Assembly (NCBI GenBank): GCA_963722005.1
Contig: CAVRJS010000002.1
Coordinates: 37,190-101,189 of the forward strand
Direction of reading: 5' to 3'
Source of the DNA: an uncultured beta proteobacterium
GTDB lineage: Bacteria; Pseudomonadota; Gammaproteobacteria; Burkholderiales; Burkholderiaceae_D
Length of the DNA: 64,000 bases
Position numbers and translations under genes: made by a program. Every line of letters begins with the position of its first letter. Positions within the stretch are counted from its first letter, which is position 1. A model generated the notes under the pieces. It did no database searches. It worked only from the letters and a program-made list of their open reading frames with translations, and was not told where the DNA came from. Of the stretch, positions 18,733-35,668 are shown piece after piece.

Positions 18733-19767
<1,035 letters not shown>

Positions 19768-19778
<11 letters not shown>

Positions 19779-21027: not shown

Positions 21028-22631
21028 GCGGCCTCCACGGATGTGCGTGCGCCGCCGTCAAAGCTGACGCGCCAGTCCTGGCACAACGCCTCGACCTTTT
21101 CGTCCTGCGGCCAGCGGTTGCCGTAGGCGCCGTCCAGCCACACTGATGTCACCGCGGTGGCGACGCGCAGCCTGCCGGCGTCGAGCCGTTGCATGCGCGC
21201 CGCGCGGTTGGCCAGGCGCAGGCAATCCGCTTCGGTGGCACCCCGGGTCAGAAGCAGCCCGTTTTCATTGATCAGGCGCGACACCGTGGCGCGATAGAGC
21301 AGCGCCAGGGCAGCGCGATGCTCGTCCTTGCGCCACAATGCGAGCACGTTGCTGCTGACATCGTCGGGCAGGCTTTCCGGCCTGATGTCGAGGCCGCCGA
21401 TTTCAGTGGCCAGTTCCGGGTTGCGTTGGCCAAACAGCGTCGAGAAATTGCCGCGGAAGCGGTACAGCAGCCATACCACGCCGACGATGGCGAGGGTGAT
21501 CAGCAGCAGCCGCACCACGGCGGCATAGGCTTCCATGTCTGGCGGCGGCGAATTTTTTTTCTTTTCTTCCTTTTCTTTTTCTTCCTTCTTTTTCTCGTTC
21601 GGCTTCGGCTTGCGCACCCAGGTTTCTTCGCAGCGGTAATTGCGCAGATCGTCGTCGCGGTAGAGCTGGTCGACTTCTTCGCGCAGGCGCTTCTGCGTCT
21701 CGTTGCGCGCAGGCGCGCGTTCATTGCCCAGCGTGAGCGACCACTCTGGCTCTTTGCACGCCTCCACGGCAGCACGCGCCGTCTGCGGCTGCATTGCCAC
21801 CAGCAGCACGCAGGCGAGCAGCGCCAGCGCCGCTTTCGCGCCCGGCACGAGCGCGCCGGCGCGCTCCTGCGGCGAGGCCGGCTTGAGCTGGCGCAGCGCG
21901 ATTTCGATATCCCAGGCTTCCAACGTCGCACGCCGGTTCAGGTAGAGCGTAAAGCAGCCGGCGGCATACACCGGGCCGATGATGCCGCCGCACAGCGCAT
22001 AGCAGATATAGGTGACCACGGTCAGCATCGTTTCTTGTTTCTCGCCGAAACTGAACAGGAATTTGAATGGATTGATAGCACCTTCATCCGCAAGAAAGAT
22101 GCCGATAAAAGCTACCGTACCGATCTGTATGACCGCCTCCAGGTGGGCGCAAACGATGCCGTACCAGTATGCCGACCCCGCCGTGCCGGCGGCGCCGATC
22201 ACCCGGCGGCGCTGGGCGGCTTCCCTGCCGCGCGCGCCTTCCAGTTGCCAGATGGGCTGAAACAGGCCGCGGCCCGGCATGAACGGGCGCCACCAAGTCA
22301 GCAGGCGGAACCAGCCGCCGCCGAGCTGGCGCGGCCAGGCGCGCAGCGCTCCCTGCCAGGTTACCTCTTCGCCGAATACCCGGCGCGCGAGAATGTACAG
22401 CGGCGCCCTTTCCAGCAGCGGCCGCAGCCACCACGGCAGCAGCAGCCACCAGGTGGCGCCGTCAGGAAACAGCCACGCCAGGGCCGCCGTCAGCAACATC
22501 AGCGGCAGCCACAGCGCCAGCCAGGCCTTGTAGACGGTGGCGGCATTGGCGCGCAACAGCGCCAGGCCCAGTTCGAGCGCCTGCGCATTCGGTCGCGGCC
22601 GCAAGTCGATCTGCAGTTTGTCCAGCCGCAT
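21024..22631 (-). CDS. DUF4129-like membrane protein with K/E-rich tract
   Basis: About 536 aa starting MRLDKLQIDLRPRPN…. Start overlaps the upstream gene's stop (TGATG). The ORF-track 729-aa call (to 23213) is an artefact: its first 194 codons are an alternate frame across the DUF95 gene. Confidence 0.6.
   Translation of the reverse strand: MRLDKLQIDLRPRPNAQALELGLALLRANAATVYKAWLALWLPLMLLTAALAWLFPDGATWWLLLPWWLRPLLERAPLYILARRVFGEEVTWQGALRAWPRQLGGGWFRLLTWWRPFMPGRGLFQPIWQLEGARGREAAQRRRVIGAAGTAGSAYWYGIVCAHLEAVIQIGTVAFIGIFLADEGAINPFKFLFSFGEKQETMLTVVTYICYALCGGIIGPVYAAGCFTLYLNRRATLEAWDIEIALRQLKPASPQERAGALVPGAKAALALLACVLLVAMQPQTARAAVEACKEPEWSLTLGNERAPARNETQKRLREEVDQLYRDDDLRNYRCEETWVRKPKPNEKKKEEKEKEEKKKNSPPPDMEAYAAVVRLLLITLAIVGVVWLLYRFRGNFSTLFGQRNPELATEIGGLDIRPESLPDDVSSNVLALWRKDEHRAALALLYRATVSRLINENGLLLTRGATEADCLRLANRAARMQRLDAGRLRVATAVTSVWLDGAYGNRWPQDEKVEALCQDWRVSFDGGARTSVEAA
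21553..21596. repeat. 44-nt pure polypyrimidine (T/C) tract on the top strand, polypurine on the coding strand, encoding KKKEEKEKEEKKK
   Basis: Top-strand sequence ttttttttcttttcttccttttctttttcttccttctttttctc lies inside the DUF4129-like CDS. Confidence 0.9.
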
Positions 22632-23581
22632 CAGCCGTCCCTCCTTCCGGCCAGCGCAAAGAAGGCAATCAGCGACGCCCAGCAAATGCCGCCGACGATG
22701 TACTTCACCATCGGCGCGATATCGGGGTCGGCAGACCAGAATGCCTCGAAAAAGGCCGCCAGCACGGTCAGAATGGCAGCGCCGACGAGTACCGGGAACA
22801 TGCGCCTGCCGTCCTCCACCAGCGCCTGGCGACGGGTCAGGCGCCCCGGCGAAAGCAGCGACCAGCCCAGCCGCATGCCGGCCACGCCGGACAGCAGCAG
22901 GCCGAAGACTTCGAAGCTGGCGTGCGTGATCACGAAGGTCCAGAAAGTATCGCGCGTGACCGGATCGCGGCTCAGCCAGCTGGCAACCACGCCGAAATGC
23001 ATGCCGTTGAAGGTGATGCTGATCAGCGCCGGAATGCCGGCAAACAGTCCGCCGGCAAAGGTGCGGAAATCGATCGATACGTTGTTCCAGATGTAAAAGC
23101 CGAACATCAGCACGTCGCTTTCCTCGCTGCCGCGGCCGAGATCGATCTTGCCGGGCTGGTACATGGAATGGTAGCGCTGCAGGTCGCCGGGCGACATGAA
23201 GGCATACGCCCACTCCGGCTCATACCAGACCAGCGCGCCGATGCCCAGGCCGACGCCGAAGAACGCCAATACCGTCAGCAACAGCAGGCGCCATTCGCGC
23301 CGCACCTGGCGCGGCATTTCCACCAGCAGCCAGTGCCGCAAGGTCAGCGGACGCTCGGCAGCAGCGCCATACAGGCGCCTGTGGCAATCGCTCACCATGT
23401 TTTGCAGGTAAGCAGTGAGCGCCGGGGAATAGCCGCGCTGCCCCGCCAGCGCCAGGCACTGGCACAGGCGCCGGTAGAGCGCCGGCAATTCCGTGGCGCC
23501 GTCGCGCGTCGCGCCCTTCAGGATCGCCTGGATCCTGTCCCACAATGGCGCGTACTCGATCTCGAACTGGTTCTGCTTCAT
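22631..23581 (-). CDS. DUF95 / stage II sporulation protein M-like membrane protein
   Basis: 316 aa polytopic membrane protein (MKQNQFEIEYAPLWDRI…). Its position between the RDD and DUF4129-like genes matches the conserved cluster. Overlaps the RDD gene (ATGA). Confidence 0.7.
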   Translation of the reverse strand: MKQNQFEIEYAPLWDRIQAILKGATRDGATELPALYRRLCQCLALAGQRGYSPALTAYLQNMVSDCHRRLYGAAAERPLTLRHWLLVEMPRQVRREWRLLLLTVLAFFGVGLGIGALVWYEPEWAYAFMSPGDLQRYHSMYQPGKIDLGRGSEESDVLMFGFYIWNNVSIDFRTFAGGLFAGIPALISITFNGMHFGVVASWLSRDPVTRDTFWTFVITHASFEVFGLLLSGVAGMRLGWSLLSPGRLTRRQALVEDGRRMFPVLVGAAILTVLAAFFEAFWSADPDIAPMVKYIVGGICWASLIAFFALAGRRDG

Positions 23582-24270
23582 TTCATCAACCCTGCAAGAA
23601 TGCCGCGCAACTGTTCCACGGATGCCGCGCCGGTACGCCCGGTCAATGGCTCAGCCAGCGTGCCCAGCTCTTCCAGGCGCTCGGTCGAGAGCCTGCGCTC
23701 GCGCTCGAACAGGTCGGCGAGGATACGTTGCTGCTCCGGCGTGAGAGGATATGGCGGCGCCAGCGGCGCCACGTCGGCGACGGCAGCGGCGACATTGTCG
23801 CGCTTTTCGCGCTTGTCGCGATAGATCACCTGGGTGCCGGCGACGATATCGCCGAGCCGCCGGCTGCGGCCATCGCACAGCATGGAAACGAGGCCGGCAA
23901 AGTACATGGCCGGGAGAAAATCCGCCACCAGCAACAGGTTGCGCAGGGCCGATTCACGCCAGCCGACCGGCAGGCCGTCCGCGCGCACCACCTCGATGCC
24001 GAGCATGCGTTTGCCGAGCGTGCGGCCGCCGCAATAGACTTCGCACAGGATCGGATAGCCCCAGTAGCTGACGAACAGCATCACCAGATAGATACCCTGG
24101 CCGAGATCGGTGCCCAGCAAGGCCAGCGCCAGTATCCAGATCACCACCAGCCAGATGACGAAATCGATCATCCAGGCTGCCGCGCGCGTGACCGGTCCCA
24201 CCGGCGTCATCAGCAGGCGCACGCCCTCCGGCGTGGTCTGCGAGACGCGCTCGTCGATGACCGCACTCAT
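23578..24270 (-). CDS. RDD family membrane protein
   Basis: About 230 aa from MSAVIDERV…. RDD-like TM core (…AAWMIDFVIWLVVIW…GRTLGKRMLGIEV…). Start overlaps the PLD gene's stop (TGATG). The ORF-track start at 24309 would overlap by 40 nt. Confidence 0.75.
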   Translation of the reverse strand: MSAVIDERVSQTTPEGVRLLMTPVGPVTRAAAWMIDFVIWLVVIWILALALLGTDLGQGIYLVMLFVSYWGYPILCEVYCGGRTLGKRMLGIEVVRADGLPVGWRESALRNLLLVADFLPAMYFAGLVSMLCDGRSRRLGDIVAGTQVIYRDKREKRDNVAAAVADVAPLAPPYPLTPEQQRILADLFERERRLSTERLEELGTLAEPLTGRTGAASVEQLRGILAGLMK

Positions 24271-24992
24271 CACGCGCTCCTTGCGGACGGTTCGTAAAAT
24301 GCGCTCCACAGCAGCGCAAACTGCGCGGAAAAAGCGCTCACCAGCGCTGCATCGTTGGTCATGATCACGTTCTCTTCATTGTGTTCGCTGGCGCTGCGCG
24401 TCCAGTTGTAACTGCCGTTGATCAGCCACTGGCTGTCGAACAGGGCAAATTTGTGGTGCATGTGCGCCGGACTGCGATCCACCGCCACGGGCACGCCGGC
24501 ATGCCGCAGCCTGTCGATGTCGCTGCCGGCGTCGAATTCCTTGTCATTGTCGGTCAGCAGACGCACCTTGACGCCACGCCGGTGCGCCGCCAGCACATCC
24601 TCGCTGATGCGGTCGTCGGACAGCGTGAAGACGCAGATGTCGATGCTGTCGCGTGCGGCGCGCAGGCGCTGCTGGATCGCGCGCAGGCAAGACAGACCCG
24701 GACTGAAAAAAGCCTCATTGCGCAGGGCCGCCACCGGCGCGCGTACGGCGTCGAGCGCGCGCGCCACGCCGTCCAGCCATTTCAGCAGCGATTGCTGCTC
24801 CGCGCCGTCCAGGCGCGCGCGCACCAGGTCGAAGGCGCGGTTGCGCACCTGACGCAAGCCTTCCTCGGGCGTCGCGGCGGCGCGCAGCAGCGTCATCAGC
24901 TCGCGCCTTTCGTCATCGCTCAGGCGCGCATCGGCAATGCTGGCTTCCAGGTGCGCCAGCACGTCGTCGATGGAAACCGCTGCCGTGCTCAT
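24270..24992 (-). CDS. phospholipase D-like (HKD) domain protein
   Basis: 240 aa with a single HKD motif (…HMHHKFALFDSQWLINGSYNWTRSA…), as in Nuc/PLD-superfamily enzymes that act as dimers. Confidence 0.8.
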   Translation of the reverse strand: MSTAAVSIDDVLAHLEASIADARLSDDERRELMTLLRAAATPEEGLRQVRNRAFDLVRARLDGAEQQSLLKWLDGVARALDAVRAPVAALRNEAFFSPGLSCLRAIQQRLRAARDSIDICVFTLSDDRISEDVLAAHRRGVKVRLLTDNDKEFDAGSDIDRLRHAGVPVAVDRSPAHMHHKFALFDSQWLINGSYNWTRSASEHNEENVIMTNDAALVSAFSAQFALLWSAFYEPSARSA

Positions 24993-25019: not shown

Positions 25020-28000
25020 CTATTTACCGTCATCATGTTTGTCATCCTGTTTTCTGGCATGGGGCCTGGAGGCGAGCGGCTTTTGTTCTGCGGCCGGTTC
25101 CATCAGCGGCTTCAGGCGCCCCAGCCGTTTCTCCAGTTCTTTCATGTTGGCCGACATTTCGCGCACGCCATCCCAGATGCTGTGATCCAGCCGCATCTTG
25201 TGGTTCATGGCGTTCACCATCGGCATCAGGGTTTTCTCATAGCTGTCCGTCAGGCGGGTCAGCAAGCCCTGCAGCGCCTTCTGCTCCGGCACCTTGACGT
25301 TCACCTCGGGCTGCAGGCGCTGGCCGAGCGCGGCGATCTGCTGGCTGACGTCGCCCAGCAGGTTGGCGATCTTCGTGGCGCCATCGGCATCGGCGCCGCC
25401 CTGCTTGCGCAGGCGCACGAAATCCTGACGCAGCGCCTGCCAGCGCGCCTGCTCGTCCGCCGCCGGCTGACCCAGCAGGTGCGCCAGCTTGAGCAGGTTT
25501 TCCTCGGCGCCGCTGGTCAGCGTCTGCGCCTCGCCGCGATAGTGGTCGCGCAGCAGACTGTCGATTTCGTCGTCGCGCATGATGGCCGATATCTTCGGCG
25601 CCAGCTTGCTCATGTTGCGGTAACTGCCTTGCAGCCGGAACGGCGGCTCGTCACGGTAGGCGTCATCCTGCGCCGCCGAGGCGATATAGGCCAGGTTCAC
25701 TTTCAGCAGCGCGTCGCGCACCTTGAACAGGCGCTGCAGCACGCCGCGGATCTCGGCGACTTCCTGGGCGCTGTAGGCATGCTTAAGCTCGCTGGCCGGC
25801 AGCGGTTCGCCGGCGGCCATGCGCAGCAGCGTGTAAATATCCTGCGGGTCGCGTGCCGCCAGCGGCTGCAGCACCGGATGCGAAGTCAGCGAGTTCTCGA
25901 TATAAGACATCGCGAAGGCTTCTTCGCGCCCCGACAGCACGTCGCCAAGGTTATAGATATCGGCGCGGTTGGCCAGCATGTCGGGGATCTTGAAGACGTC
26001 GCCCGATTCGGTGTACGGGTTGCCGGCCATGACGACCGCGAAGCGCTTGCCGCGCATGTCGTAGCTGCGCGCCTCGCCGCGCCAGACGCCTTCGACGCGA
26101 CGCGTGCCGTCGGCCAGCGAAATGAATTTCTGCAGGAACTCCGGATGCGTGTGCTGGATATCGTCGAGGTACAGCATGACGTTGTTACCCATCGCCAAGC
26201 CAAGATTGAGCTTTTCCAGCTCGACGCGCGCCGCGCTGTTGGCGGCCTGCGCCGGGTCCAGCGAAGTCACGCCATGCCCCAGCACAGGGCAATTGACGCG
26301 CACGAAGATCATGCCCAGGCGGTCTGCAAGGTATTCCATCAGGGTGGTCTTGCCATAGCCCGGCGGCGAAATCAGCAGCAGCATGCCCATCGAATCGGTG
26401 CGGCGCTGTTCGCCGGCGGCGCCGATCTGCTTGGCCAGGTTGTCGCCCACCAGCGGTAGGTAAACCTCGTCGAGCAGGCGGTTGCGCACAAAGGAAGACA
26501 GCGGCTTGGCCTGGAACTGTTCCAGCCGCAGACGCGCCTTCTCTTCCTGCCCCAGGGCCTGGCGCAGCTGCTGCAGGCGCTCGTACGCCGGCACGGTCAC
26601 CTGGACGTGATGCTGCAGGCGGCGCGTGAAATCGTTCAGCTGCAATTCGCTTGCCTGGTCGACGATGCGCGGGTGCTCACCCAGCAAACCGTCCACCCTG
26701 ACGCGCAGATCGGCCGCCTGCAGCCGGCGCGGCAGCGCGCACAGCAGGCCGGCGGCAGCTTCCGGCAACAGGCCGGCATCGAGTTCGCGATTGGCGATAT
26801 AGGCGTGCAGCCATTCGCGCGCCAGCTGCCAGCGCTCGCGCCACGACAGCGTGTCGTCCTTCCATGGCAGCGCAATATTGTTGCGTGCCAGGTGCTGCAG
26901 CAAGCCCTGCGCGATCTCGTCAGCGCCGCGACTCTGCACCCATTCGTGGGCCGCGGCGCGCGGCGCCGCCTCCGCTGCGCCGCCGAGCTCCTCCAGCAGA
27001 TAGGCGGCCGCCTGTTGTTGCAGCAGCTCCGCCGATTCGCTGTTGGCATCCAGCAGTTCGACAATGTCGATCTGCTGCTGCGCCAGAAATTTCTGCAGCG
27101 CCAGCTGCAGCTGCGCGACCAGCTGCAGCCACAGCCGCTCGCTGCCGAACTGGCGCCGCATCAGGCCGGCCTGCTCGGCCTGGTGGCGCAGGGTTTGCGC
27201 AGCCAGTTGCAGGCTGGGCGTGGCGGACAGGTCTTGCCAGTACAGCAGCGCGACGGCGCGCGGCAGCGGCGCGAAGCGCAGCAGGCCGGCGCCATCCCAC
27301 AGCGGCGCCAGCTTGCGCAGGATGCGCGCGGCGTCGTGGTCGTGGATGCCCTTCTGGTAGCCTTCGTGGTAGCGCGGCGCGGCAAAGCGGCGCACCTTGT
27401 CTTCAAGCGCACCGTCTTCCTGGCGCGCCGCCTGCAGCAGCGCGTCCAGGCTCCACTCGTCAGTGCCGGCCTGTGCCGCCAGCAGGATTTGCCAGGCAAG
27501 GTACTCGCCGCGATACACCTGGCGGTTTTCCGCCGGCCCTTCCTGGCCCCAGTATTCCTGTAACTCGGCCAGGCGGGGATCGTCCAGCGCGGCGAAATAA
27601 TCGGTGCCGGTGAGATGAAAAGCCAGCTTCTCGCGATGCGGCACGATGGTCAGATCGAGCGTCTGCTGGCTGATGGTGAAGGCATGCCGCCCAAGGCGGA
27701 TGGTATTGCCGCTGACCAGTTCGGTGCGGTCGCGCAGGGCGCGCTGGCCCTGCTCGCGCAGACTTTTTAGCTGGCCGGCAAGGTCGTCAGCGGCGACATG
27801 GTTGCCGATCTTGCGCAACTCCTCGATGCTGCCCTTGAGCTTGCCGAGCAGCGCGTCCGAAGCGAAGTAAGCTTCCAGCTGCGCGGCTTCGCGCAGCTGC
27901 GCCAGCCGCTTTGGCACGCCGGCGAGGATGCGCCGGGCCGCGTCGGCGATGGCCTGCGCGCGCCTTGCGCGCGCATCCAGCAGCGCCTGCTTGCGGGTTT

Positions 28001-30395
28001 CCATGGCTTCGTACACGGCTTCGCGCTTTTGCGCGATCTCGGCGATGTAATCTTCCTGTTCGGCGAAGCGTCCTTCCAGTTCTTCCAGCTGCGCCAGCAG
28101 CCGCGTCAGCAGTTCGTCGCAGCGCTCCGGCGTTTCGGCCTGCTCCAGCGCGCTTTCCACGCCCTGCGCAAACAGCTTGAACTGGGCGGCAAACTCGGCC
28201 GCGGACTCTCCCTGCGACAGCTGCTTCTTGCGCTGGCGCGCTTCGGCACGCAGCTTGTTGACATCGCCATAGATGGCGGAGATGGCATCGAGAATGCGCG
28301 TGCGCAGGGTGGGGTCGCCCACCGACAGCGTGCCGAGCAATTCGTTGAGGCCGTCGAGGCTGCGCGCGGTGCGGTCCAGCTCCTCGTGCAGCGGCGCCAG
28401 TTGCGCCGTGGTCTGCATGGCGGGCAACTCGGCGCGCTGGCGCGCCAGCGCCTCGTTAATGCGCACGAACGCGTCATCCTGCGAGAGGAACTGCACGGTA
28501 CGCTCGGATACGCGCGCCTCTTCCTCGCCAAGCTGGCCGTCGAGCTGGGCCAGCCGCGCCACGTCCATGTAGCGCTGTTCCTTCAGGCTGGCCAGGCGAC
28601 CGCGCGCCAGGCGCAGCTTTTCCAGGGCTTCGATGAAGTCGGTCGGCAGCTGCCACATGCGACTGGCAGTCTCGGTCAGCAGCTGGCGCTGCGCCAGTTC
28701 GGTCTGCTGCAGCGTGCGCTGCGCTTCCTGGCGGATGGCGGCGACCTTGTCGAATTCGTCGAGCGTGGCGCCGGCCACCTCGATCAGGCCGCGCACTGCG
28801 GCCGCAGCCTGCTGCGCCTCGGGCGCCTCCAGCCAGGGATAGGCATCGACGACCCGGCGGCATTGCCGTACCAGGGTTTCATAGACAAAGCGCGTCGGCA
28901 GGCTGTCGCGGCCGCCCTCGCCCTGTTCGCGCACCAGCCGCGCCACCGAGTACAGTTCGGACAAGCCGCGCACCAGTTCGCGGTTGCCGATCTTGCCGAA
29001 GAAAGTCTGGCGCGGCGCCTGGCGCGCGGCATGCTCGTCGCTGAGGAACGGCGTCTGCCACAGCTGCATCGGATGGTTGCGGGTCGGCTCGTCGCTTTCC
29101 ACCGCGAACAGCAGCGCGCGGCCGTCGCCGTAGCGGGCGAATCCGTGCGTCAGCAACGGCTTGGAGAGCGTCTTGTCGATCAGGTTGTAGGTCAGCAGCG
29201 CATAGATGCCGGACTCGACGTTGTAAAACACGTACAGCACGTCCTCGCCGTTCGGCGCCAGCAGGCGGCGCTTGAATTGCAGGCCCTGCGGCATGTCGTC
29301 GAACAGCTTGGCGTCGCCGTTTTGCAGCACGTAGCCGCCCGGGAAGACGATGCCGTGGTCTTCCGGCAGCTGCACGCAGGACGCGCCGATGGCATCGATG
29401 CGCCGCACTTCGCTGTTGCGGCGGTTGTACACCAGGTAGCGGACGGTCGTCTCGCGGTAAGGCTTGATGCGCAGCAGGATCAGCTCGCCGACGGCGGCGT
29501 AGGCGATTTCGGCGTCGTTCAGCGACTGGTTGCGGTCTTCCACCGGCTCGGTGTAGATGCCCAGCCCGGATTCGGTGTTGTCCTCGACCTTGATGGTCAG
29601 GTCGCCGCCGATGGTTTCGACGAACAGGGTATCGAGCACGTTGACATGCGGATGCTTGCCCAGCACGTGCTGGTCGCGCGTGGCGACCGTCCATTCGAAG
29701 TCGTGCGCGGGCGGCAGCGCAATGTCGCGTTCGCCGCGGTTGTCGATGTAACTGACTTCGCCCGATTCGCGCAGCTGCCAGCGGAACACGCGCACGTCGC
29801 TGATGCGTTCGCCGATCTTGAACGCCGCCAGCAGCTTGCCCTGGGTGACGCGCAGCTGCACCAGCTGCGCGTTGCGGTAATAGTTGTAAAGCTCGCGGAA
29901 TTCGGCGATGAAGCGGGCGTCGTCGAGGAAGGTGTTTTCCAGCGGCAGCGCTTCCAGCTCGTCGTGGCCGTCGCCGGCGCGCAGGCGATACAGGCCGAAG
30001 ACGTCGCCCACGCGCGTTTCCTGGCGCAAGCCGATGAAGACGTTGTAACCGAACACCAGGGTGTCGCCGACCAGAACCAGGTCGCGCGCCACGCAATTGT
30101 TTTCGGTGCGCGCACGCGTGCGCGCCAGCAGGGTCAGCTCTTCGCGGCCGAATTCGTCCAGGCGGGCTTGATTGACGCGCCCGGCCTTGTCCAGCAATTC
30201 CTTGCCCTGTTCCGCCAGGCGCCGGCGCAGCAGGTCGAAACTGCTGGAGCCGGCGACTGCCTGCGCAACGGCGGTGTCGCCTGCGTCCGGCTGGCCGGTT
30301 ACGGTATTTGCTACGCTGTTCGCTTCACTCATTGACTGGTTTTCCGCTCGGATATTGGACGTGAGACGATGCGCTTCAATCCGTCCGGGCGGCAA
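25020..30395 (-). CDS. 1791-aa protein: N-terminal globular domain, about 600-aa coiled coil, C-terminal MoxR-like AAA+ ATPase
   Basis: Single uninterrupted frame. C-terminal Walker A LLISPPGYGKTTLMEYL, Walker B VMLYLDDIQH, and VVMAGNPYTESGD sensor region (MoxR/AAA_5-like). Central heptad-like L/Q/E/A/R-rich coiled coil. The ORF-track start is an alternative codon. An ATG at 30332 (MSEANSV…) is the likelier start. Confidence 0.8.
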   Translation of the reverse strand: MPPGRIEAHRLTSNIRAENQSMSEANSVANTVTGQPDAGDTAVAQAVAGSSSFDLLRRRLAEQGKELLDKAGRVNQARLDEFGREELTLLARTRARTENNCVARDLVLVGDTLVFGYNVFIGLRQETRVGDVFGLYRLRAGDGHDELEALPLENTFLDDARFIAEFRELYNYYRNAQLVQLRVTQGKLLAAFKIGERISDVRVFRWQLRESGEVSYIDNRGERDIALPPAHDFEWTVATRDQHVLGKHPHVNVLDTLFVETIGGDLTIKVEDNTESGLGIYTEPVEDRNQSLNDAEIAYAAVGELILLRIKPYRETTVRYLVYNRRNSEVRRIDAIGASCVQLPEDHGIVFPGGYVLQNGDAKLFDDMPQGLQFKRRLLAPNGEDVLYVFYNVESGIYALLTYNLIDKTLSKPLLTHGFARYGDGRALLFAVESDEPTRNHPMQLWQTPFLSDEHAARQAPRQTFFGKIGNRELVRGLSELYSVARLVREQGEGGRDSLPTRFVYETLVRQCRRVVDAYPWLEAPEAQQAAAAVRGLIEVAGATLDEFDKVAAIRQEAQRTLQQTELAQRQLLTETASRMWQLPTDFIEALEKLRLARGRLASLKEQRYMDVARLAQLDGQLGEEEARVSERTVQFLSQDDAFVRINEALARQRAELPAMQTTAQLAPLHEELDRTARSLDGLNELLGTLSVGDPTLRTRILDAISAIYGDVNKLRAEARQRKKQLSQGESAAEFAAQFKLFAQGVESALEQAETPERCDELLTRLLAQLEELEGRFAEQEDYIAEIAQKREAVYEAMETRKQALLDARARRAQAIADAARRILAGVPKRLAQLREAAQLEAYFASDALLGKLKGSIEELRKIGNHVAADDLAGQLKSLREQGQRALRDRTELVSGNTIRLGRHAFTISQQTLDLTIVPHREKLAFHLTGTDYFAALDDPRLAELQEYWGQEGPAENRQVYRGEYLAWQILLAAQAGTDEWSLDALLQAARQEDGALEDKVRRFAAPRYHEGYQKGIHDHDAARILRKLAPLWDGAGLLRFAPLPRAVALLYWQDLSATPSLQLAAQTLRHQAEQAGLMRRQFGSERLWLQLVAQLQLALQKFLAQQQIDIVELLDANSESAELLQQQAAAYLLEELGGAAEAAPRAAAHEWVQSRGADEIAQGLLQHLARNNIALPWKDDTLSWRERWQLAREWLHAYIANRELDAGLLPEAAAGLLCALPRRLQAADLRVRVDGLLGEHPRIVDQASELQLNDFTRRLQHHVQVTVPAYERLQQLRQALGQEEKARLRLEQFQAKPLSSFVRNRLLDEVYLPLVGDNLAKQIGAAGEQRRTDSMGMLLLISPPGYGKTTLMEYLADRLGMIFVRVNCPVLGHGVTSLDPAQAANSAARVELEKLNLGLAMGNNVMLYLDDIQHTHPEFLQKFISLADGTRRVEGVWRGEARSYDMRGKRFAVVMAGNPYTESGDVFKIPDMLANRADIYNLGDVLSGREEAFAMSYIENSLTSHPVLQPLAARDPQDIYTLLRMAAGEPLPASELKHAYSAQEVAEIRGVLQRLFKVRDALLKVNLAYIASAAQDDAYRDEPPFRLQGSYRNMSKLAPKISAIMRDDEIDSLLRDHYRGEAQTLTSGAEENLLKLAHLLGQPAADEQARWQALRQDFVRLRKQGGADADGATKIANLLGDVSQQIAALGQRLQPEVNVKVPEQKALQGLLTRLTDSYEKTLMPMVNAMNHKMRLDHSIWDGVREMSANMKELEKRLGRLKPLMEPAAEQKPLASRPHARKQDDKHDDGK

Positions 30396-30404: not shown

Positions 30405-30905
30405 TCATTTCCGCAGCATTGGGCCGATCCTGGAGCCACTGCCTGATGCGCTGCAATTCATCGAAATCGTCGCCAAAGCGGCCGCGCTGGGCCGCGCTAC
30501 GCGTGCGCGCGACGCCGCCGTCTGCAGGTTGCGCTGCCAGCGCTCCGACACCACGTCATCCAGCTGACGTTCCAGGCCCAGCGACAGCAGCACTTCCCAT
30601 TCGCCTTGGTCGAGCCAGACTCCCTGGGCCGGCGCACTGTAGTCGAGCCGGAACGGTGTCTCGTTGGTGACCTTTACGCGCATCATCAGGCGCCCGGTCT
30701 TCGGACAAAGCCGCGCCATGTCGCCGTCATCCTCTATTTCTGCAGCATGCAACGGCTCCGGCGACTCGACCACCAGGTGGCGCCAGGCGCGGTAGATATC
30801 GAGATCGACCCAGATGCCGTGGCAAGCCGTGCAGCTCAACACCGGCAAATCGCCGTGCACCAGTACCTGGTTAAATTCCCTTGCAGCGCAAGCAGGACAA
30901 CGCAT
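30405..30905 (-). CDS. zinc-ribbon domain protein
   Basis: 166 aa. N-terminal CPAC…(16)…CTAC four-cysteine zinc ribbon and a second CPKTG half-site. Lies between the flotillin and giant ATPase genes. Confidence 0.6.
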   Translation of the reverse strand: MRCPACAAREFNQVLVHGDLPVLSCTACHGIWVDLDIYRAWRHLVVESPEPLHAAEIEDDGDMARLCPKTGRLMMRVKVTNETPFRLDYSAPAQGVWLDQGEWEVLLSLGLERQLDDVVSERWQRNLQTAASRARVARPSAAALATISMNCSASGSGSRIGPMLRK

Positions 30906-30919: not shown

Positions 30920-33082
30920 CTATTTCGGCATGGACGACGCATCGCCGTCCGGCTTGAAGTTTTGCAGCAGGCGATTCAGCGCCGCCTTCTGCTGGCCGTT
31001 GCCCTCCCTGCTCACCTTGGCCAGCAAGCCGGCCACCGTCAGGTCCTGCAGTTCCGAGGCGCTGCCGCCGAGGGCGCCGATCAGGCCCTGCAGATCGCCG
31101 ACCATGTCGCGCTCGCCGTTCAGGTGGTCTTTCAGGCCGACCTGCAGGGTCTTGCTCTTGGCGATGGTGGCATCGATGCCCTTGCCGATCGACAGCGCGT
31201 TGACGAAGCGGTCGAAGTAATCGCCCTCGCCGCCGACGATGTCGATCTTGGCATTCTGCAGCGCCTTGCCCAGCACTTCGGCCTGCTCGCGGGCGATGCT
31301 GGTCTGCGCTTCGATGCCCTTGATGATCTGCTGATTGGCGATTTCCAGCTGCATGCGGTATTCCTCGTGGGCACGGGTGTCGGTGCTCATCGCCGCCATG
31401 GCCTCGAACTTCTGGCGCAGGCCGGTCGATTCCGCCTCGAACTTGGCCTGGATGACGCTCGCCTCGGCCTGGCCGTGACGCGTCACGGCATCGGCGTCGG
31501 CGGTCTTGACAGCGGCTTCGGCAAAACCGAGCTGCTCGTTGCCCCTGGCTTGTGCCTCCAGCTGCAGGCGCGTGGCTTCCGCCTGGGCTGCGCCCTGGCG
31601 CAGGACGGCTTCGGAATCGGCCACCTTGCCTTTGGCTTCGGCTTCCATGCGCAGGCGAATCGCTTCGGCTTCGGCCGCGCCCTGCTTGAGGATGGCTTCG
31701 GATTCAGCAATCTTGACGCGGGCGTCGGCCAGGCCTTCGGCCGCCAGTTCGGCTTCCTTGCCCTCGGCTTCGCGCTTCTTGGCTTCGGCCGCCTTTTCCG
31801 CCACTTTCAGACGCGCCTCGGCGAGCGTCAGCTCCTGCTGCGCCTTGTGCTTGGCCGAGCGCTCTTCCGCTTCGGCTGCCTTGACGGTCAACACCATTTT
31901 CTCTTCGGCGCTGGCTTCGGCGGTGATCACCACGGACTTCTTCTGGCGATCCGCTTCGGACACCACGCGCACTTCCTTGATCGCTTCTTCCTGCTCGGCC
32001 ACCGTGCGCTCGACCACGATGCGTTCGCGGATGACATCGGCAATCGCCTTCTTCTGCACCTCGATCGCCTTTTCCTTCTCGATGGTCTGCAATGCCACTT
32101 CGCGCTCGCGCTCGACGATTTCCAGCTGACGGGCGCGGGTGACGCGCTCTTCCTCGATGGCGATGGCGCGCTTGCGATTGTTTTCCGCGACTTCCTTTTC
32201 GCGCTGGGTGTTTTCCTGCTGCACCAGGATCAGCTGCTCGGCCTGCAGGCGCGCCAGTTCGGACTTGGCGTGCTCTTCCGCTTGCACCTTCTCGGTTTCG
32301 GCCTGTTCACGCGCGCGCACCGAGCCGACTTCACGGCCCTGGCGCGATTCGGCGTCGGCCTGCTGGCGTTCCAGTTCGAGGATGGCTTCGCGCGTTTCCA
32401 CGTCCTTCTTCTTGATGCGCATCTGTTCGTCGCGCCGCAGCTCATTGGTGCGCACGCTCTCGACTGCGGTCAGCTCGGTGATTTTCTTGATACCCTGGGC
32501 ATCGAGGATATTCTGGCCATCCAGCTTGTCCATCGGCGTTTGTTCCAGGTAATCGATCGCCGCATCTTCCAGCACGTAGCCGGACAGGTCGTCGCCGATC
32601 TGGCGGATGATCTCGTCGCGGAAGCGGTCGCGCGCCTGGTACAACTCGACGAAATCCATCGACTTGCCCACTGTTTTCAGGGCCTCGGCAAATTTGGCAG
32701 AAAACAGGCTTTCCAGCGTCTCCTGGTTGGAGGCGCGCGCGCAACCGACCGCTTGCGCCACCCGCAGCACGTCTTCCGCGGTCTTGTTGACGCGAATGAA
32801 GAAGGTCACCTTGATATCGGCGCGGATATTGTCCTGGCAAATCAGGCCCTCCTTGCCGAAGCGGTCGATCTCGATGGTCTTGAGCGAGATTTCCATCAAT
32901 TCCCGCTTGTGGATGATGGGGTAGACCATGCCGCCGGTGAAAGTCACTTCCGGCTCCGAGCGCAGCGTGTTGATGATCATGGCATGACCCTGCTCCACCT
33001 TGTGGTAGAACTTGGCGAACATGGCCAGCAATCCGAACAGCACGAGAGTGCCGACGCCTATCGAGAGCAGCATGATATCCAT
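30920..33082 (-). CDS. flotillin (SPFH/band-7) family protein, YqiK-like
   Basis: About 720 aa from MDIMLLSIGVGTLV…. SPFH domain, then a long E/A/K/R-rich flotillin coiled coil with repeated AEAE/EAEA motifs. AAGGAAA RBS upstream of the chosen ATG. The ORF-track start at 33250 is an over-extension. Confidence 0.85.
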   Translation of the reverse strand: MDIMLLSIGVGTLVLFGLLAMFAKFYHKVEQGHAMIINTLRSEPEVTFTGGMVYPIIHKRELMEISLKTIEIDRFGKEGLICQDNIRADIKVTFFIRVNKTAEDVLRVAQAVGCARASNQETLESLFSAKFAEALKTVGKSMDFVELYQARDRFRDEIIRQIGDDLSGYVLEDAAIDYLEQTPMDKLDGQNILDAQGIKKITELTAVESVRTNELRRDEQMRIKKKDVETREAILELERQQADAESRQGREVGSVRAREQAETEKVQAEEHAKSELARLQAEQLILVQQENTQREKEVAENNRKRAIAIEEERVTRARQLEIVEREREVALQTIEKEKAIEVQKKAIADVIRERIVVERTVAEQEEAIKEVRVVSEADRQKKSVVITAEASAEEKMVLTVKAAEAEERSAKHKAQQELTLAEARLKVAEKAAEAKKREAEGKEAELAAEGLADARVKIAESEAILKQGAAEAEAIRLRMEAEAKGKVADSEAVLRQGAAQAEATRLQLEAQARGNEQLGFAEAAVKTADADAVTRHGQAEASVIQAKFEAESTGLRQKFEAMAAMSTDTRAHEEYRMQLEIANQQIIKGIEAQTSIAREQAEVLGKALQNAKIDIVGGEGDYFDRFVNALSIGKGIDATIAKSKTLQVGLKDHLNGERDMVGDLQGLIGALGGSASELQDLTVAGLLAKVSREGNGQQKAALNRLLQNFKPDGDASSMPK

Positions 33083-33141: not shown

Positions 33142-33762
33142 TCAGCCGTCGGCCGGCGCCGCCGCCACTTCGTACTGCTGGCGGGCGTCGTCGTAGTCGA
33201 GGATGACTGCGGTGGAATTCTTGCCAAGGGTATTGGGCGCCTTCGCCCACACGCGGATGTTGAGGCTGACGCCGCTGTCGCTGACTTCGGCGCGGCCGAA
33301 CTTTTCATCGACGCTGCCGGTCACGATGCGGCAATGCAGGCCGACCAGGCTGCGGTTGCTGCGCGCCTGGTGCTTGACGAACAGTCCGCGCAAGGGCCGG
33401 ATGGCGCGCGCCGACAAGGGAATGGCCAGGCCTGCCGCCAGCAGCAGCACGCCGGCGCCGGCCAGCAGCTGCAGCGGCAGCGTTGGCACCCACACCAGCA
33501 CGTACTGGTGCGCCAGCGCGGTAAACAGCCAGGTGAAAAAGACCAGCACCGTGAGCGCAATCGAGATCGGCACGCCCCCCAGGCCCAGGGCCACCAGGTA
33601 ACCCGCCAGGGAATGCAGGTCGTGATCGCCGACTTCGAATTCGAGGCTGTCGCCCAGGTCGACCAGGCCGACAATGGAAAACAGCCAGTAAACGAGCAGG
33701 ACGGCGAGCACGACCGTGGGCACGGCGCTTGGAAAGCTGCTGAGCAACGCCCAGGTCGACAT
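33142..33762 (-). CDS. YqiJ/DUF1449 (NfeD-like) membrane protein
   Basis: About 206 aa from MSTWALLSSFPSAV…. Multiple TM helices plus a C-terminal soluble OB-like region. The classic yqiJ-yqiK arrangement directly upstream of flotillin. Confidence 0.7.
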   Translation of the reverse strand: MSTWALLSSFPSAVPTVVLAVLLVYWLFSIVGLVDLGDSLEFEVGDHDLHSLAGYLVALGLGGVPISIALTVLVFFTWLFTALAHQYVLVWVPTLPLQLLAGAGVLLLAAGLAIPLSARAIRPLRGLFVKHQARSNRSLVGLHCRIVTGSVDEKFGRAEVSDSGVSLNIRVWAKAPNTLGKNSTAVILDYDDARQQYEVAAAPADG

Positions 33763-33853
33763 CGTCCATTCCCCTATAAAAATGCACATCGTTACCGGGC
33801 TCGTCGGCCGCGGCGCGCTTTGCCGGCACCGGCAAACTGATGCCTATTATTTA

Positions 33854-34186
33854 TTATTTCTTTTTTGAAACTTGCTTTTTCGCAAAGTTTATCAGTTCCT
33901 GATGCAAAACTTCCTTGATTCGTCGTTTATCTTCCACATCGATACCAAATCGCTGCGCCAGCAAGACGTAATCGGCATCGCTCAGGCTGACCGTCAGGCG
34001 CGGACGCTGCGGTCGCGCGGTGCAGGGCAGGCCGAGGATCGTGCGGATCTGGTCGGGTTGCGACAGGTGGTTCACATAGGCGGCATAGCGCACCGCCTCG
34101 ATGACCTGCTCTTCGACGTCGAACGCCACCTGCACTGCGCGCAAGGCGGCGTCCGACCCCGACCAGCGCGAAGAACTGCGCACCAT
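33854..34186 (-). CDS. small hypothetical protein, possible ribbon-helix-helix
   Basis: 110-aa ORF. The segment …RPRLTVSLSDADYVLLAQRFGID… resembles an RHH beta-strand/helix. The true start may be an internal Met. Confidence 0.4.
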   Translation of the reverse strand: MVRSSSRWSGSDAALRAVQVAFDVEEQVIEAVRYAAYVNHLSQPDQIRTILGLPCTARPQRPRLTVSLSDADYVLLAQRFGIDVEDKRRIKEVLHQELINFAKKQVSKKK

Positions 34187-34940: not shown

Positions 34941-34950
34941 GAGGACCTCC

Positions 34951-35379
34951 TTATTTGAGATAGTCGGCAAACACTTCGAGGGCTTCGATGGCGTTGTCCG
35001 CCACCATGGCCACGTCTTTGGCAATGGCGTCGACGCCGGCATCCGGCGCCAGCGCGCCATAGATCACGTAGCGCTCGCCGATGCGGCCGAAATCGGACAG
35101 CGGAATCGAAATGTTCAGGTCGATCATCGCTTCGAGCATGTCGGCGCGCCGCTCAGTGCGCACTTCGGCCTCGGTCCACAGGTAGCTGATGCACAGCACC
35201 TGGGTAGGCGTGACAGTGACGAACACCGGCAATTCTTCCTGCCCCTCGAAGCTGATGCGCATCACCGGCACGCCATCCGCATCGGCCGGCGGCAGCACAG
35301 AGGTACTCACCGGGGATGCGGCGCGATGCTGCGCCAGCGCTTGTTCGATGCCCTGCAACTGAATCATGCCCTGCTCCAT
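34951..35379 (-). CDS. YjfI/DUF2170 family protein
   Basis: About 142 aa from MEQGMIQLQGIEQ…. DUF2170-like. Classic yjfI-yjfJ pairing with the PspA-family gene. AGGGGGA RBS. Confidence 0.7.
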   Translation of the reverse strand: MEQGMIQLQGIEQALAQHRAASPVSTSVLPPADADGVPVMRISFEGQEELPVFVTVTPTQVLCISYLWTEAEVRTERRADMLEAMIDLNISIPLSDFGRIGERYVIYGALAPDAGVDAIAKDVAMVADNAIEALEVFADYLK

Positions 35380-35668
35380 GCTTCCCCCTTCGTTGTTAGA
35401 GTGATGCGACGACATAATATGTCAACGTTAGCGATGCTGACATAAAATGTCAAGCATTCTGCAAACAATTTTATCAACCGTGCAAGCACGCTACGATTTG
35501 TGCCTTTTCGGGTTTAAATATCTTTAACATTTACCTCGGCAAAAATGATTTTATTTCCACAAGGAATTATCTATCATGGGGTGTATGGATTGGCCGTGCA
35601 TGCATGCCACATATTCATTGCAAATAATCAATAAAATCATTCTTTTCAGGAAACTCAGATAGAATGAA

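What the first reader, a model, noticed from the sequence alone, without database searches (positions are those of the whole stretch)
25020..30395. Giant 1791-aa protein: N-terminal globular domain, long coiled coil, C-terminal MoxR-like ATPase
Residues about 60-480 form a beta-rich region of no recognised family. Residues about 520-1150 are almost pure heptad coiled coil (L/Q/E/A/R-rich) that could span tens of nanometres. The C-terminus is an AAA_5/MoxR-like ATPase with a helical lid (…VVMAGNPYTESGDVFKIPDMLANRADIY…). In overall plan it resembles an SMC- or dynein-stalk-like mechanochemical protein, but with a single AAA module. A second MoxR ATPase (18729..19778) is encoded 6 kb downstream in the same transcription direction.
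Basis: seen in the sequence. Interest (0 to 1): 0.7.

Follow-up and report, generated by a model that had tools for sequence, protein, structure and literature searches.

The report
Giant flotillin-operon MoxR-like AAA+ ATPase (BacE)
This 1770-residue protein is real but not new: it is the ortholog of Pseudomonas aeruginosa BacE/PA3728, the propeller + helical + AAA+ ATPase already described by comparative genomics in flotillin/PspA membrane-stress operons, and nobody has yet shown what it does.

Summary
The outline of the domain plan is right. The details are not.

- **N-terminal domain:** a roughly 7-bladed beta-propeller that is a recognised Pfam family (DUF3686, E=1e-191).
- **"Coiled coil":** about 430 residues of helices broken into 16-58-residue segments.
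- **Middle region:** a confidently folded, family-specific domain of about 425 residues follows the helices.
- **C-terminus:** a single AAA+ module closest in fold to MoxR ATPases (CbbQ, NorQ). All catalytic residues and an arginine-finger candidate are invariant in 81 sequences.

In 75 of 75 informative genomes the gene directly follows a flotillin (SPFH) gene, and usually a YqiJ/NfeD-like gene. PspA plus YjfI accompany it in about 40% of loci and a PLD-family gene in about 20%. The "second MoxR" belongs to an unrelated cluster (0 of 80).

Ravi et al. 2024 described this architecture and operon. In P. aeruginosa it is bacABCDEF (PA3732-PA3727).

The most likely role is an ATP-driven remodeller of flotillin/PspA membrane scaffolds. 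This is inferred, not shown. The "DNA repair ATPase" name has no visible support. Already known; moderate interest.

The parts
25020..30332 (-). Gene for the 1770-aa propeller + helical + AAA+ ATPase (BacE/PA3728 ortholog).
   Evidence: ORF list and translation. The 100% identical database protein P0001 is 1770 aa. Start-region sequence.
30150..30290 (-). N-terminal helical hairpin (aa 15-61, P0001 numbering)
   Evidence: AF2 model m587bf81a2310, helices 15-27 and 30-61
29055..30134 (-). Beta-propeller, about 28 strands or roughly 7 blades (aa 67-426); core of Pfam DUF3686
   Evidence: Pfam PF12458 at E=1.1e-191. AF2 pLDDT mostly 80-92. Foldseek hits to WD40-type and prolyl-oligopeptidase propellers, PON1, DDB1 and the clathrin terminal domain.
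27714..29003 (-). Segmented all-helical region (aa 444-873), including Pfam DUF7902 (aa about 620-704)
   Evidence: AF2 helices of 16-58 residues with breaks. Pfam PF25472 at E=4.7e-23. Patchy heptad signal.
26433..27710 (-). Family-specific middle domain (aa 875-1300): small beta unit plus a helical domain
   Evidence: AF2 pLDDT above 93. No Pfam, PDB-sequence or fold-search match to this domain. In the 1.84-billion representative library it occurs only at about 850-1300 of 1600-1900-aa proteins; 573 clusters match.
25938..26387 (-). AAA+ alpha/beta core (aa 1316-1465) with a pre-sensor-1 beta-hairpin
26343..26360 (-). Walker A, GYGKTT (aa 1325-1330)
   Evidence: Invariant in 81/81 sequences from several phyla
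26160..26165 (-). Walker B acidic pair D1390-D1391 (LYLDDIQH): DD rather than DE
   Evidence: Invariant in 81/81
25965..25967 (-). R1456 (ANRAD), arginine-finger candidate
   Evidence: Invariant in 80/80. It sits where the R of the MoxR 'LDRF' motif sits in the window's own MoxR.
25116..25925 (-). AAA+ lid and C-terminal helical domain (aa 1470-1739), with sensor-2 candidate R1572 in GSYRNM
   Evidence: AF2 model. R1572 is invariant in 80/80.
30920..33082 (-). Flotillin/SPFH membrane protein (TM + SPFH + long coiled coil), invariant upstream partner; ortholog of P. aeruginosa PaFlo3/BacD
   Evidence: Found upstream in 75/75 loci that have upstream DNA, and in 74/80 by unbiased clustering. Weak NCBIfam FloT hit at E=1.2e-4. 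The pQBR103 ortholog is annotated as an SPFH domain protein. PaFlo3 = PA14_16180.
33142..33789 (-). YqiJ/YuaF-type 3-TM protein with an NfeD-like C-terminus; ortholog of BacC/PA14_16160
   Evidence: Present in 67-70 of 80 loci, always just upstream of the flotillin gene. Translation. Called 'short NfeD' in PMC13086221.
34200..34943 (-). PspA/IM30 (ESCRT-III superfamily) protein; BacB/YjfJ type
   Evidence: Pfam PspA_IM30 at E=2.8e-33. Present in 33-34 of 80 loci.
34951..35415 (-). YjfI/DUF2170 (CesT/Tir-like) protein; BacA type; first gene of the cluster
   Evidence: Pfam DUF2170 at E=5.3e-23. Present in 33-34 of 80 loci.
33854..34186 (-). 110-aa protein of unknown family; lineage-specific insert
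   Evidence: No Pfam hit. Present in 12-15 of 80 loci.
30405..30905 (-). 166-aa Zn-ribbon protein between the flotillin and ATPase genes; lineage-specific insert
   Evidence: Pfam Zn_ribbon_TFIIB at E=1.2e-7. Present in 11 of 80 loci.
24270..24992 (-). Single-HKD PLD-family hydrolase (Nuc/NucT-like); BacF type
   Evidence: Pfam PLDc_2 at E=2.2e-31. Directly downstream in 17 of 80 loci. Same position in P. aeruginosa.

Best explanation
The gene encodes the ortholog of P. aeruginosa BacE (PA3728/PA14_16190). It is a cytoplasmic protein of about 195 kDa. In order, it has an N-terminal helical hairpin, a roughly 7-bladed beta-propeller (DUF3686), about 430 residues of segmented helices, a family-specific domain of about 425 residues, and one C-terminal MoxR/AAA_5-like AAA+ module.

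It is the ATPase of a conserved three-gene membrane module: YqiJ/NfeD-like protein, flotillin (SPFH), ATPase. Here that module sits inside the longer YjfI - PspA - ... - PLD operon described as a PSP (phage-shock/envelope-stress) variant.

Inferred mechanism:
1. The AAA+ modules assemble into a ring, probably a hexamer.
2. The long N-terminal arms with their propellers dock onto the flotillin scaffold, and onto PspA polymers where present, at the cytoplasmic face of the inner membrane.
3. ATP binding and hydrolysis is used to assemble, disassemble or extract components of these scaffolds during membrane stress.

This would resemble Vps4 acting on ESCRT-III, RavA arms docking on LdcI, or FtsH working inside HflK/C cages.

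Shown here: identity, architecture, intact catalytic motifs and gene linkage. Shown in P. aeruginosa by others: co-transcription and co-regulation. Inferred only: ring formation, physical contact with flotillin or PspA, and remodelling activity.
For: Architecture:
- Pfam finds DUF3686, DUF7902 and AAA/AAA_5.
- The AF2 models are confident: pLDDT 85.6 and 83.5.
- The N-terminal domain gives propeller hits.
- The AAA+ module is nearest to CbbQ and NorQ (MoxR), then midasin, ClpA/B and dynein. CbbQ, NorQ and the Clp ATPases work as rings; midasin and dynein carry their AAA+ modules as a ring within a single chain.

Active ATPase:
- Walker A, Walker B, sensor 1, R1456 and R1572 are invariant in 80-81 sequences from Proteobacteria, Myxococcota, Actinobacteria, Acidobacteriota and others.
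- The AAA+ region is the most conserved part of the protein.

Linkage:
- A flotillin gene lies immediately upstream in 75/75 informative loci. YqiJ-like is present in 67-70, PspA and YjfI in 33-34, and PLD in 17. No other common neighbour was found.
- Flotillin and ATPase divergence are correlated (r=0.92).

Literature:
- Ravi et al. 2024 describe the same operon and architecture and propose ATP-dependent membrane remodelling and chaperone-like roles.
- In P. aeruginosa the six genes are co-transcribed, and all are raised 6-13-fold in a bacA mutant.
- BacE is this family: primer-encoded peptides and the genomic context both match.
- PA3728-PA3732 are induced in all phage-infected samples in one study.
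- A 2025 review states that no Vps4-like ATPase is known for bacterial PspA.
Against: - No experiment on this protein was found in any organism: no ATPase assay, no localisation, no interaction data, no mutant.
- Ring formation and contact with flotillin or PspA are inferred from fold relatives and gene order only.
- The Walker B is DD, not DE. This may mean slow, switch-like hydrolysis rather than a motor.
- There is no aromatic pore-loop motif typical of polypeptide translocases in the beta2-alpha2 loop (NCPxLGH).
- MoxR ATPases normally work with a VWA partner, and none is among the conserved neighbours.
- PspA is absent from about 60% of the loci, so a Vps4-like role on PspA cannot be the core function.
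- The paFlo3 (flotillin) mutant of P. aeruginosa has only a marginal biofilm phenotype.
Confidence: 0.55

Rival explanations
1. It is a nucleotide-dependent switch or scaffold rather than a motor. ATP binding, with slow hydrolysis, controls whether the large propeller and helical arms organise or cap flotillin microdomains. No substrate is unfolded or pulled.
For: The Walker B is DD in 81/81 sequences instead of DE, as in slow initiator-type AAA+ proteins such as DnaA (my own knowledge). There is no aromatic pore loop. About 1,300 residues are non-ATPase structural domains.
Against: An arginine finger candidate, sensor 1 and sensor 2 are all invariant, which argues for real hydrolysis in an oligomer. 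The closest folds, CbbQ and NorQ, are active remodellers.
Confidence: 0.2
2. It is part of an anti-phage defence (abortive infection) module. The flotillin/PspA part senses membrane damage by phage, and the ATPase activates the PLD-family nuclease.
For: PA3728-PA3732 are upregulated in all phage-infected P. aeruginosa samples in one study. The adjacent PLD protein gives weak hits to the defence proteins DrmC, MkoB and DpdK and to NucT nuclease. Large ATPases are common in defence systems.
Against: - The ATPase, flotillin, YqiJ-like and PspA proteins have no PADLOC match beyond trivial P-loop hits.
- PLD is present in only 17/80 loci.
- The gene is core in P. aeruginosa: one 90% cluster holds 3,222 member sequences and sits among thrC, recJ and lasB.
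- It is absent from phages and is found only on megaplasmids or chromids.
- PspA systems are induced by any membrane stress.
Confidence: 0.1
3. It is an SMC- or dynein-stalk-like mechanochemical protein with a coiled coil tens of nanometres long.
Against: - The helices are 16-58 residues long with frequent breaks. pTM values of 0.60 and 0.73 suggest folded-back bundles rather than one rod.
- There is no ABC-type head, no hinge and no SMC_N hit.
- Residues 875-1300 are globular.
- There is one AAA module, not six.
Confidence: 0.08
4. It is a DNA repair ATPase, as its NCBI and Pfam names say.
For: - The name is carried by Pfam PF12458 and PGAP.
- There are weak RuvB-like P-loop hits and a DnaA-like DDIQ Walker B.
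- A Nuc-like PLD gene and a Zn-ribbon gene lie nearby.
- recJ lies 2 genes downstream in P. aeruginosa.
Against: - No DNA-binding or nuclease domain was found in the protein.
- Its obligate neighbours are membrane proteins.
- No paper was found that links the family to DNA repair. Searches for 'DUF3686', and for 'DNA repair ATPase' together with 'flotillin', returned nothing.
- The RuvB hits cover only the P-loop.
Confidence: 0.04
5. It works together with the MoxR/DUF58 cluster 6 kb downstream as a two-ATPase system.
For: The two are on the same strand, with no terminator-like hairpin between the PLD gene and 17390..17413.
Against: None of RDD, SpoIIM-like, DUF4350, MoxR or DUF58 is found near the ATPase in 80 other loci. 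The pairwise similarity of the two ATPases is marginal (E=0.005 in a single comparison, P-loop region only).
Confidence: 0.03

Closest known systems
P. aeruginosa BacE (PA3728 / PA14_16190) in the bacABCDEF 'biofilm-associated cluster'
   Same: Full-length collinear homolog: about 48-50% identity to Pseudomonas members over about 88-98% of the length. The Pfam set is the same. The gene order is the same: DUF2170 - PspA - NfeD-like - flotillin - ATPase - PLD.
   Different: The window's operon carries two extra small genes, a 110-aa protein and a Zn-ribbon protein, found only in Burkholderiales. No sigma-54 -24/-12 consensus was found upstream here, whereas one was proposed for P. aeruginosa. 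BacE itself has never been studied functionally.
'Betapropeller + Coiled-coil + AAA-ATPase' of the CesT/Tir-PspA-flotillin-YqiJ operon (Ravi et al., mSystems 2024)
   Same: The architecture and operon composition are identical, including the optional PLD/HKD gene in Proteobacteria and the widespread abbreviated flotillin + YqiJ + ATPase form.
   Different: Nothing substantive differs. This report adds the ~7-blade count, the family-specific middle domain, the MoxR-type fold assignment, the invariant motifs including DD, and the quantified linkage.
MoxR-family AAA+ ATPases (CbbQ, NorQ, RavA)
   Different: There is no AAA_3 or AAA_lid_2 match and no VWA partner among the conserved neighbours. 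The Walker B is DD. A 1,300-residue N-terminal extension is present. Sequence similarity to a true MoxR is marginal.
Vps4 / CdvC with ESCRT-III
   Same: An AAA+ ATPase genetically linked to an ESCRT-III-superfamily polymer (PspA), so a similar 'disassemblase' logic is plausible.
FtsH with HflK/C, and m-AAA protease with prohibitin (SPFH cage + AAA+ machine)
   Same: A pairing of an SPFH-family membrane scaffold with an AAA+ ATPase. The SPFH partner has an NfeD-type companion.

Membership tests
Pfam DUF3686 / NCBI 'DNA repair ATPase' family | Match to PF12458 above its gathering score (25 bits) | tested here: met
   637.7 bits, E=1.1e-191, covering profile positions 1-447 of 448
Pfam DUF3686 / NCBI 'DNA repair ATPase' family | Full-length collinear architecture DUF3686 + DUF7902 + C-terminal AAA, about 1700-1800 aa | tested here: met
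   The top 120 hits of each of the two searches carry the same Pfam set; all but three (1486-1652 aa) are 1709-1918 aa long
BacE / PSP-flotillin operon (Ravi 2024; Wallart 2024) | Flotillin/SPFH gene immediately upstream on the same strand | tested here: met
   In the window: 30920..33082. In other genomes: 75/75 informative loci. The orthologs are PaFlo3 and an 'SPFH domain-containing protein'. Pfam itself gives no hit for the window protein; there is only a weak NCBIfam FloT hit.
BacE / PSP-flotillin operon (Ravi 2024; Wallart 2024) | YqiJ/YuaF-type 3-TM (short NfeD) gene upstream of the flotillin gene | tested here: met
   In the window: 33142..33789. Present in 67-70 of 80 loci. No Pfam hit; the assignment rests on orthology to PA14_16160 and on the sequence.
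BacE / PSP-flotillin operon (Ravi 2024; Wallart 2024) | CesT/Tir-like DUF2170 + PspA_IM30 dyad at the head of the operon | tested here: met
   DUF2170 at E=5.3e-23. PspA_IM30 at E=2.8e-33.
BacE / PSP-flotillin operon (Ravi 2024; Wallart 2024) | Optional PLD/HKD hydrolase downstream (Proteobacteria) | tested here: met
   PLDc_2 at E=2.2e-31 at 24270..24992
AAA+ superfamily | Walker A GxxGxGK[ST]; Walker B hhhhD[DE]; sensor-1 polar residue; arginine finger; sensor-2 arginine in the lid | tested here: met
   GYGKTT, LYLDD, N1438, R1456 and R1572 are all invariant. The Walker B second acidic residue is D, not E. The AAA+ fold is confirmed.
MoxR family (AAA+ clade 7) | Closest fold relatives are MoxR proteins | tested here: met
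MoxR family (AAA+ clade 7) | Pre-sensor-1 beta-hairpin | tested here: met
   Strands 563-568 and 571-576 of the C-terminal model lie between alpha3 and beta4
MoxR family (AAA+ clade 7) | Helix-2 beta-hairpin insert and pre-sensor-2 helix insert | tested here: inconclusive
   The model shows a conserved 14-18-residue loop (PxLGH...DP) but no beta-hairpin in helix 2, and an extra 33-residue helix before the sensor-2 helix.
MoxR family (AAA+ clade 7) | Sequence membership (AAA_3 / AAA_lid_2 profiles) | tested here: not met
   Only the generic AAA and AAA_5 profiles match, at 32-35 bits. There is no AAA_3 or AAA_lid_2 hit, whereas the window's true MoxR scores 219 and 76 bits. Pairwise E=0.005.
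MoxR family (AAA+ clade 7) | Cognate VWA/MIDAS-domain partner encoded nearby | tested here: not met
   Unbiased clustering of neighbours in 80 loci finds no further common family. The DUF58/VWA gene in the window belongs to the other MoxR cluster.
Vps4-type ESCRT-III disassemblase | N-terminal MIT domain and a classical-clade AAA with a second region of homology | tested here: not met
SMC / Rad50-type coiled-coil ATPases | Split ABC-type head, long antiparallel coiled coil, hinge or zinc hook | tested here: not met
   No SMC_N or ABC hit. The ATPase is an undivided AAA+ module at the C-terminus. The helices are segmented.
Known anti-phage defence systems (PADLOC 2.0) | Match of the ATPase or its core partners to a defence-system model | tested here: not met
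   The ATPase gives only P-loop-level hits, 29-34 residues long, at E of 3e-4 or weaker. The flotillin protein gives none. The YqiJ-like and PspA proteins were not scanned against PADLOC.
Ring-forming (hexameric) AAA+ machine | Oligomerisation into a closed ring with inter-subunit arginine finger contact | not testable with these tools
   Only monomer prediction was available. Inferred from the invariant R1456 and from ring-forming fold relatives.

The most novel reading that the evidence does not exclude
This family is the missing ATP-driven partner of bacterial membrane scaffolds. In this reading it forms a MoxR-like hexamer whose six propeller-tipped arms grip the flotillin/NfeD cage, and PspA polymers where these are co-encoded. 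It then disassembles or recycles them after membrane damage. That would make it a non-homologous functional analog of Vps4 (for ESCRT-III) and of FtsH-in-HflK/C, and the first dedicated flotillin remodeller in any organism.
Probability: 0.3. Interest if true: 0.75.

Novelty: already known. Interest (0 to 1): 0.35.

Why it matters
Bacterial flotillins and PspA/ESCRT-III polymers are known to form large membrane assemblies. How those assemblies are taken apart or regulated is open, and a 2025 review notes that no Vps4-like ATPase is known in bacteria.

This conserved giant AAA+ protein is fixed next to flotillin in at least six phyla and is core in P. aeruginosa. That makes it the obvious untested candidate. 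Its operon in P. aeruginosa has been tied to biofilm, rhamnolipid and virulence phenotypes and responds to phage infection.

The practical value of this check is mostly corrective:
- The protein is not a new kind of object.
- Its database name ('DNA repair ATPase') is probably misleading.
- The neighbouring MoxR is a coincidence.

Tried and rejected
- **PDB by sequence:** searches with the single protein and with a 75-sequence profile found nothing significant. No member of the family has a solved structure.
- **Flotillin and YqiJ-like proteins:** PDB sequence search (flotillin only) and Pfam (both) gave no hits. Their identity rests on orthology and a weak NCBIfam hit.
- **Literature:** searches for 'DUF3686', and for 'DNA repair ATPase' with 'flotillin', returned nothing.
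- **Sigma-54 promoter:** a consensus scan found no site upstream of the first gene, and the match count was at chance level.
- **Exact-protein contig lookup for P0001:** The closest relatives are Oxalobacteraceae (Massilia, Janthinobacterium, Duganella).
- **Middle domain:** the fold searches were swamped by AAA+ hits, so its fold relatives remain unknown.
- **CBASS-PspA paper:** checked and found irrelevant to this protein.
- **Second giant ORF (56854..62205):** the idea that it is a paralog was rejected. It is DUF2339 + DUF3999.
- **Linkage to the downstream MoxR:** rejected (0/80).
Full report
**1. The observation**

The window holds one uninterrupted ORF on the minus strand from 30395 (TTG) to 25020. 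A 100% identical database protein is 1770 aa long (P0001). The TTG lies only 10 nt after the stop of the upstream gene, and an ATG follows 21 codons later. The gene is real: two searches each returned more than 5,000 homologs, almost all 1,700-1,800 aa long and with the same Pfam composition.

**2. Anatomy**

Pfam finds:
- DUF3686 (PF12458, 'ATPase involved in DNA repair') over residues about 45-498, at E=1.1e-191.
- DUF7902 over about 620-704.
- Weak but above-threshold AAA and AAA_5 matches at about 1318-1445.

So the N-terminal domain does belong to a recognised family, though only a DUF.

Two AlphaFold2 models built on 75-sequence alignments cover the whole protein at good confidence (mean pLDDT 85.6 and 83.5). 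They show, in order:
- A helical hairpin (15-61).
- A beta-rich domain of about 28 strands (67-426). Foldseek matches it to WD40-type, prolyl-oligopeptidase, PON1, DDB1 and clathrin-terminal-domain propellers at about 10% identity. This indicates a propeller of roughly 7 blades.
- An all-helical region (444-873) made of helices 16-58 residues long with regular breaks.
- A very confidently predicted domain (875-1300, pLDDT above 93) with a small beta unit and many helices.
- An AAA+ alpha/beta core (1316-1465) with a pre-sensor-1 beta-hairpin.
- A lid plus a further helical domain (1470-1739).
- A disordered tail.

Heptad periodicity is strong only in patches. About 430 residues are helical and segmented. 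The longest helix would span about 9 nm, by arithmetic from its 58 residues. The following 425 residues are a globular domain.

That middle domain has no Pfam, PDB-sequence or fold match. In a library of 1.84 billion representatives it occurs only at the same position of proteins with the same length class (573 clusters at E<=1e-3). It appears to be specific to this family.

**3. The ATPase**

The sensor-1 segment FAVVMAGNPYTESGDVFKIPDMLANRAD lines up with [26 protein letters not shown] of the window's own canonical MoxR. Overall sequence similarity to that MoxR is marginal, though (E=0.005, P-loop region only), and the AAA_3 and AAA_lid_2 profiles do not match.

I extracted the protein from 80 genomes spanning Beta-, Gamma- and Zetaproteobacteria, Myxococcota, Actinobacteria, Acidobacteriota and a Clostridia MAG, and aligned them with the window protein. 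The following are invariant:
- Walker A GYGKTT.
- Walker B LYLDDIQH.
- Sensor-1 N1438.
- R1456, in the arginine-finger position.
- R1572, in the sensor-2 position.

The AAA+ region is also the most conserved part of the protein.

Two oddities stand out. The Walker B pair is DD rather than DE, and the beta2-alpha2 loop (NCPxLGH...DP) lacks the aromatic pore-loop motif of polypeptide translocases.

**4. Surroundings**

On the same strand, with gaps of about 7-72 nt, lie:
- A DUF2170/YjfI-like gene (34951..35415).
- A PspA/IM30 gene (34200..34943).
- A 110-aa gene.
- A YqiJ/YuaF-type 3-TM gene (33142..33789).
- A TM + SPFH + coiled-coil flotillin-type gene (30920..33082).
- A Zn-ribbon gene (30405..30905).
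- The ATPase.
- A single-HKD PLD-family gene (24270..24992).

In the 80 other loci:
- The flotillin gene precedes the ATPase in 75 of 75 cases where upstream DNA is available.
- The YqiJ-like gene is present in 67-70 loci.
- YjfI and PspA are present in 33-34.
- PLD is present in 17.
- The 110-aa and Zn-ribbon genes are present in 11-15, mainly in Burkholderiales and other Betaproteobacteria.

An unbiased all-against-all clustering of neighbouring ORFs found no other recurrent partner, and in particular no VWA protein. Flotillin and ATPase divergence are tightly correlated (r=0.92).

The RDD / SpoIIM-like / DUF4350 / MoxR / DUF58 genes downstream never accompany the ATPase elsewhere (0/80). 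The 'second MoxR' is a neighbour by accident of this genome, although no terminator-like hairpin separates the two clusters.

The family is absent from 50,697 phage records. Among plasmids it occurs only on megaplasmids, chromids and mislabelled chromosomes.

**5. What is already known**

Ravi et al. (mSystems 2024, PMC11237479) describe precisely this system. [quoted passage not shown] A PLD/HKD hydrolase is present in some Proteobacteria, and abbreviated flotillin + YqiJ + ATPase operons are widespread. Their table writes the architecture as 'Betapropeller+Coiled-coil+AAA-ATPase'.

In P. aeruginosa the operon is the 'biofilm-associated cluster' bacABCDEF. Wallart et al. 2024 (PMC10948618) showed co-transcription of PA14_16140 to PA14_16200 and 6-13-fold accumulation of BacB-F in a bacA mutant. 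Earlier work tied bacA and bacB to biofilm, rhamnolipid, swarming and virulence.

I verified that BacE is this family:
- The P. aeruginosa protein P0280 is 1746 aa long, represents 3,222 member sequences, and has DUF3686 + DUF7902 + AAA.
- It sits in the order DUF2170 - PspA - 213 aa - 688 aa - P0280 - PLDc_2 - YaeQ - RecJ - LasB.
- The published RT-PCR primers encode its peptides TENNCIA and LIKVMDR.

Other reports:
- PA14_16180 is PaFlo3 and PA14_16160 is a short NfeD. The paFlo3 mutant loses only about 20% of biofilm (PMC13086221).
- PA3728 ('ATPase') recurs among genes mutated in CF isolates (PMC8190622).

I found no experiment on the ATPase itself, no solved structure, and no basis in the searched literature for the name 'DNA repair ATPase'.

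**6. Most likely mechanism**

The constant three-gene core (NfeD-like, flotillin, ATPase) is found in both Gram-negative and Gram-positive lineages. This places the protein's job at the cytoplasmic face of the inner membrane, together with the SPFH scaffold. PspA is a frequent but dispensable addition.

The invariant catalytic set and the arginine finger point to a working oligomeric AAA+ ring. The nearest folds, CbbQ and NorQ, are ring remodellers that act on a bound partner rather than threading whole polypeptides. The propeller is a typical docking platform.

I therefore favour a MoxR-like ring whose long arms dock on flotillin (and PspA) assemblies and use ATP to remodel or recycle them under membrane stress. 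I give this overall confidence 0.55:
- Identity and module membership: about 0.9.
- Remodeller mechanism: about 0.45.

The DD Walker B and the missing pore loop keep a slower 'switch/scaffold' variant alive (0.2). The other rivals score lower, for the reasons given in their entries:
- Defence: 0.1.
- SMC/dynein-like rod: 0.08.
- DNA repair: 0.04.
- Partnership with the downstream MoxR: 0.03.

**7. Verdict**

MoxR-like, a single AAA module and an arginine finger are correct. The SMC/dynein analogy, the unrecognised N-terminal domain and the link to the second MoxR are not.

The object is already known as a family and as an operon component, but it is functionally uncharacterised. Interest is moderate (0.35). 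It is ordinary as a discovery. It remains a good experimental target, because it is the obvious candidate for an ATP-driven partner of bacterial flotillin/PspA scaffolds.

Noticed in passing
window 17428..24309 (-): A second, canonical MoxR system lies directly downstream on the same strand: RDD protein, SpoIIM-like membrane protein, a protein of about 540-730 aa with no Pfam hit (21024..~22640), DUF4350, MoxR (AAA_3) and DUF58/VWA. The only terminator-like hairpin is at 17390..17413, so read-through from the flotillin operon is possible. Even so, none of these genes neighbours the ATPase in 80 other genomes.
   Followed up: partly
window 56854..62205 (+): Another giant ORF (1783 aa) combines DUF2339 (predicted membrane protein) and DUF3999. 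It sits in a stretch with GC 0.70 and AT skew -0.33. It is not related to the finding.
   Followed up: partly
window 26160..26165 (-), Walker B of the ATPase: The Walker B acidic pair is Asp-Asp (LYLDDIQH) in 81/81 family members rather than Asp-Glu. This is unusual for a MoxR-like AAA+ and hints at slow or regulated hydrolysis.
   Followed up: partly
window 33854..34186 (-) and 30405..30905 (-): Two small genes, a 110-aa protein with no family and a 166-aa TFIIB-type Zn-ribbon protein, are inserted in the operon only in Burkholderiales-type loci (11-15 of 80). Their role is unknown.
   Followed up: partly
L081 (pQBR103, NC_009444.1 85431-104620): On the P. fluorescens SBW25 megaplasmid pQBR103, the flotillin + ATPase pair is fused to the other PspA theme in one gene string: PspA, rhomboid, DUF2491, DUF350, DUF1190, glutathionylspermidine-synthase-like. 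An MvaT/MvaU gene lies next to it.
   Followed up: no
window 24270..24992 (-): The PLD-family protein has a roughly 100-residue helical N-terminal extension before its single HKD domain. It scores weakly against both nucleases (NucT) and the defence proteins DrmC, MkoB and DpdK. Whether it cuts lipid or nucleic acid is open.
   Followed up: no
window 35416..35668 and 35669..36874 (+): An AT-rich 250-bp intergenic region with two sigma-70-like sites precedes the operon. It is shared divergently with a GGDEF diguanylate cyclase gene. No sigma-54 consensus was seen there, unlike the proposal for P. aeruginosa bacA.
   Followed up: partly
window 1..8000: GC content is 0.54-0.57 here, against 0.60-0.70 in the rest of the window. 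This may be a compositionally distinct segment.
   Followed up: no
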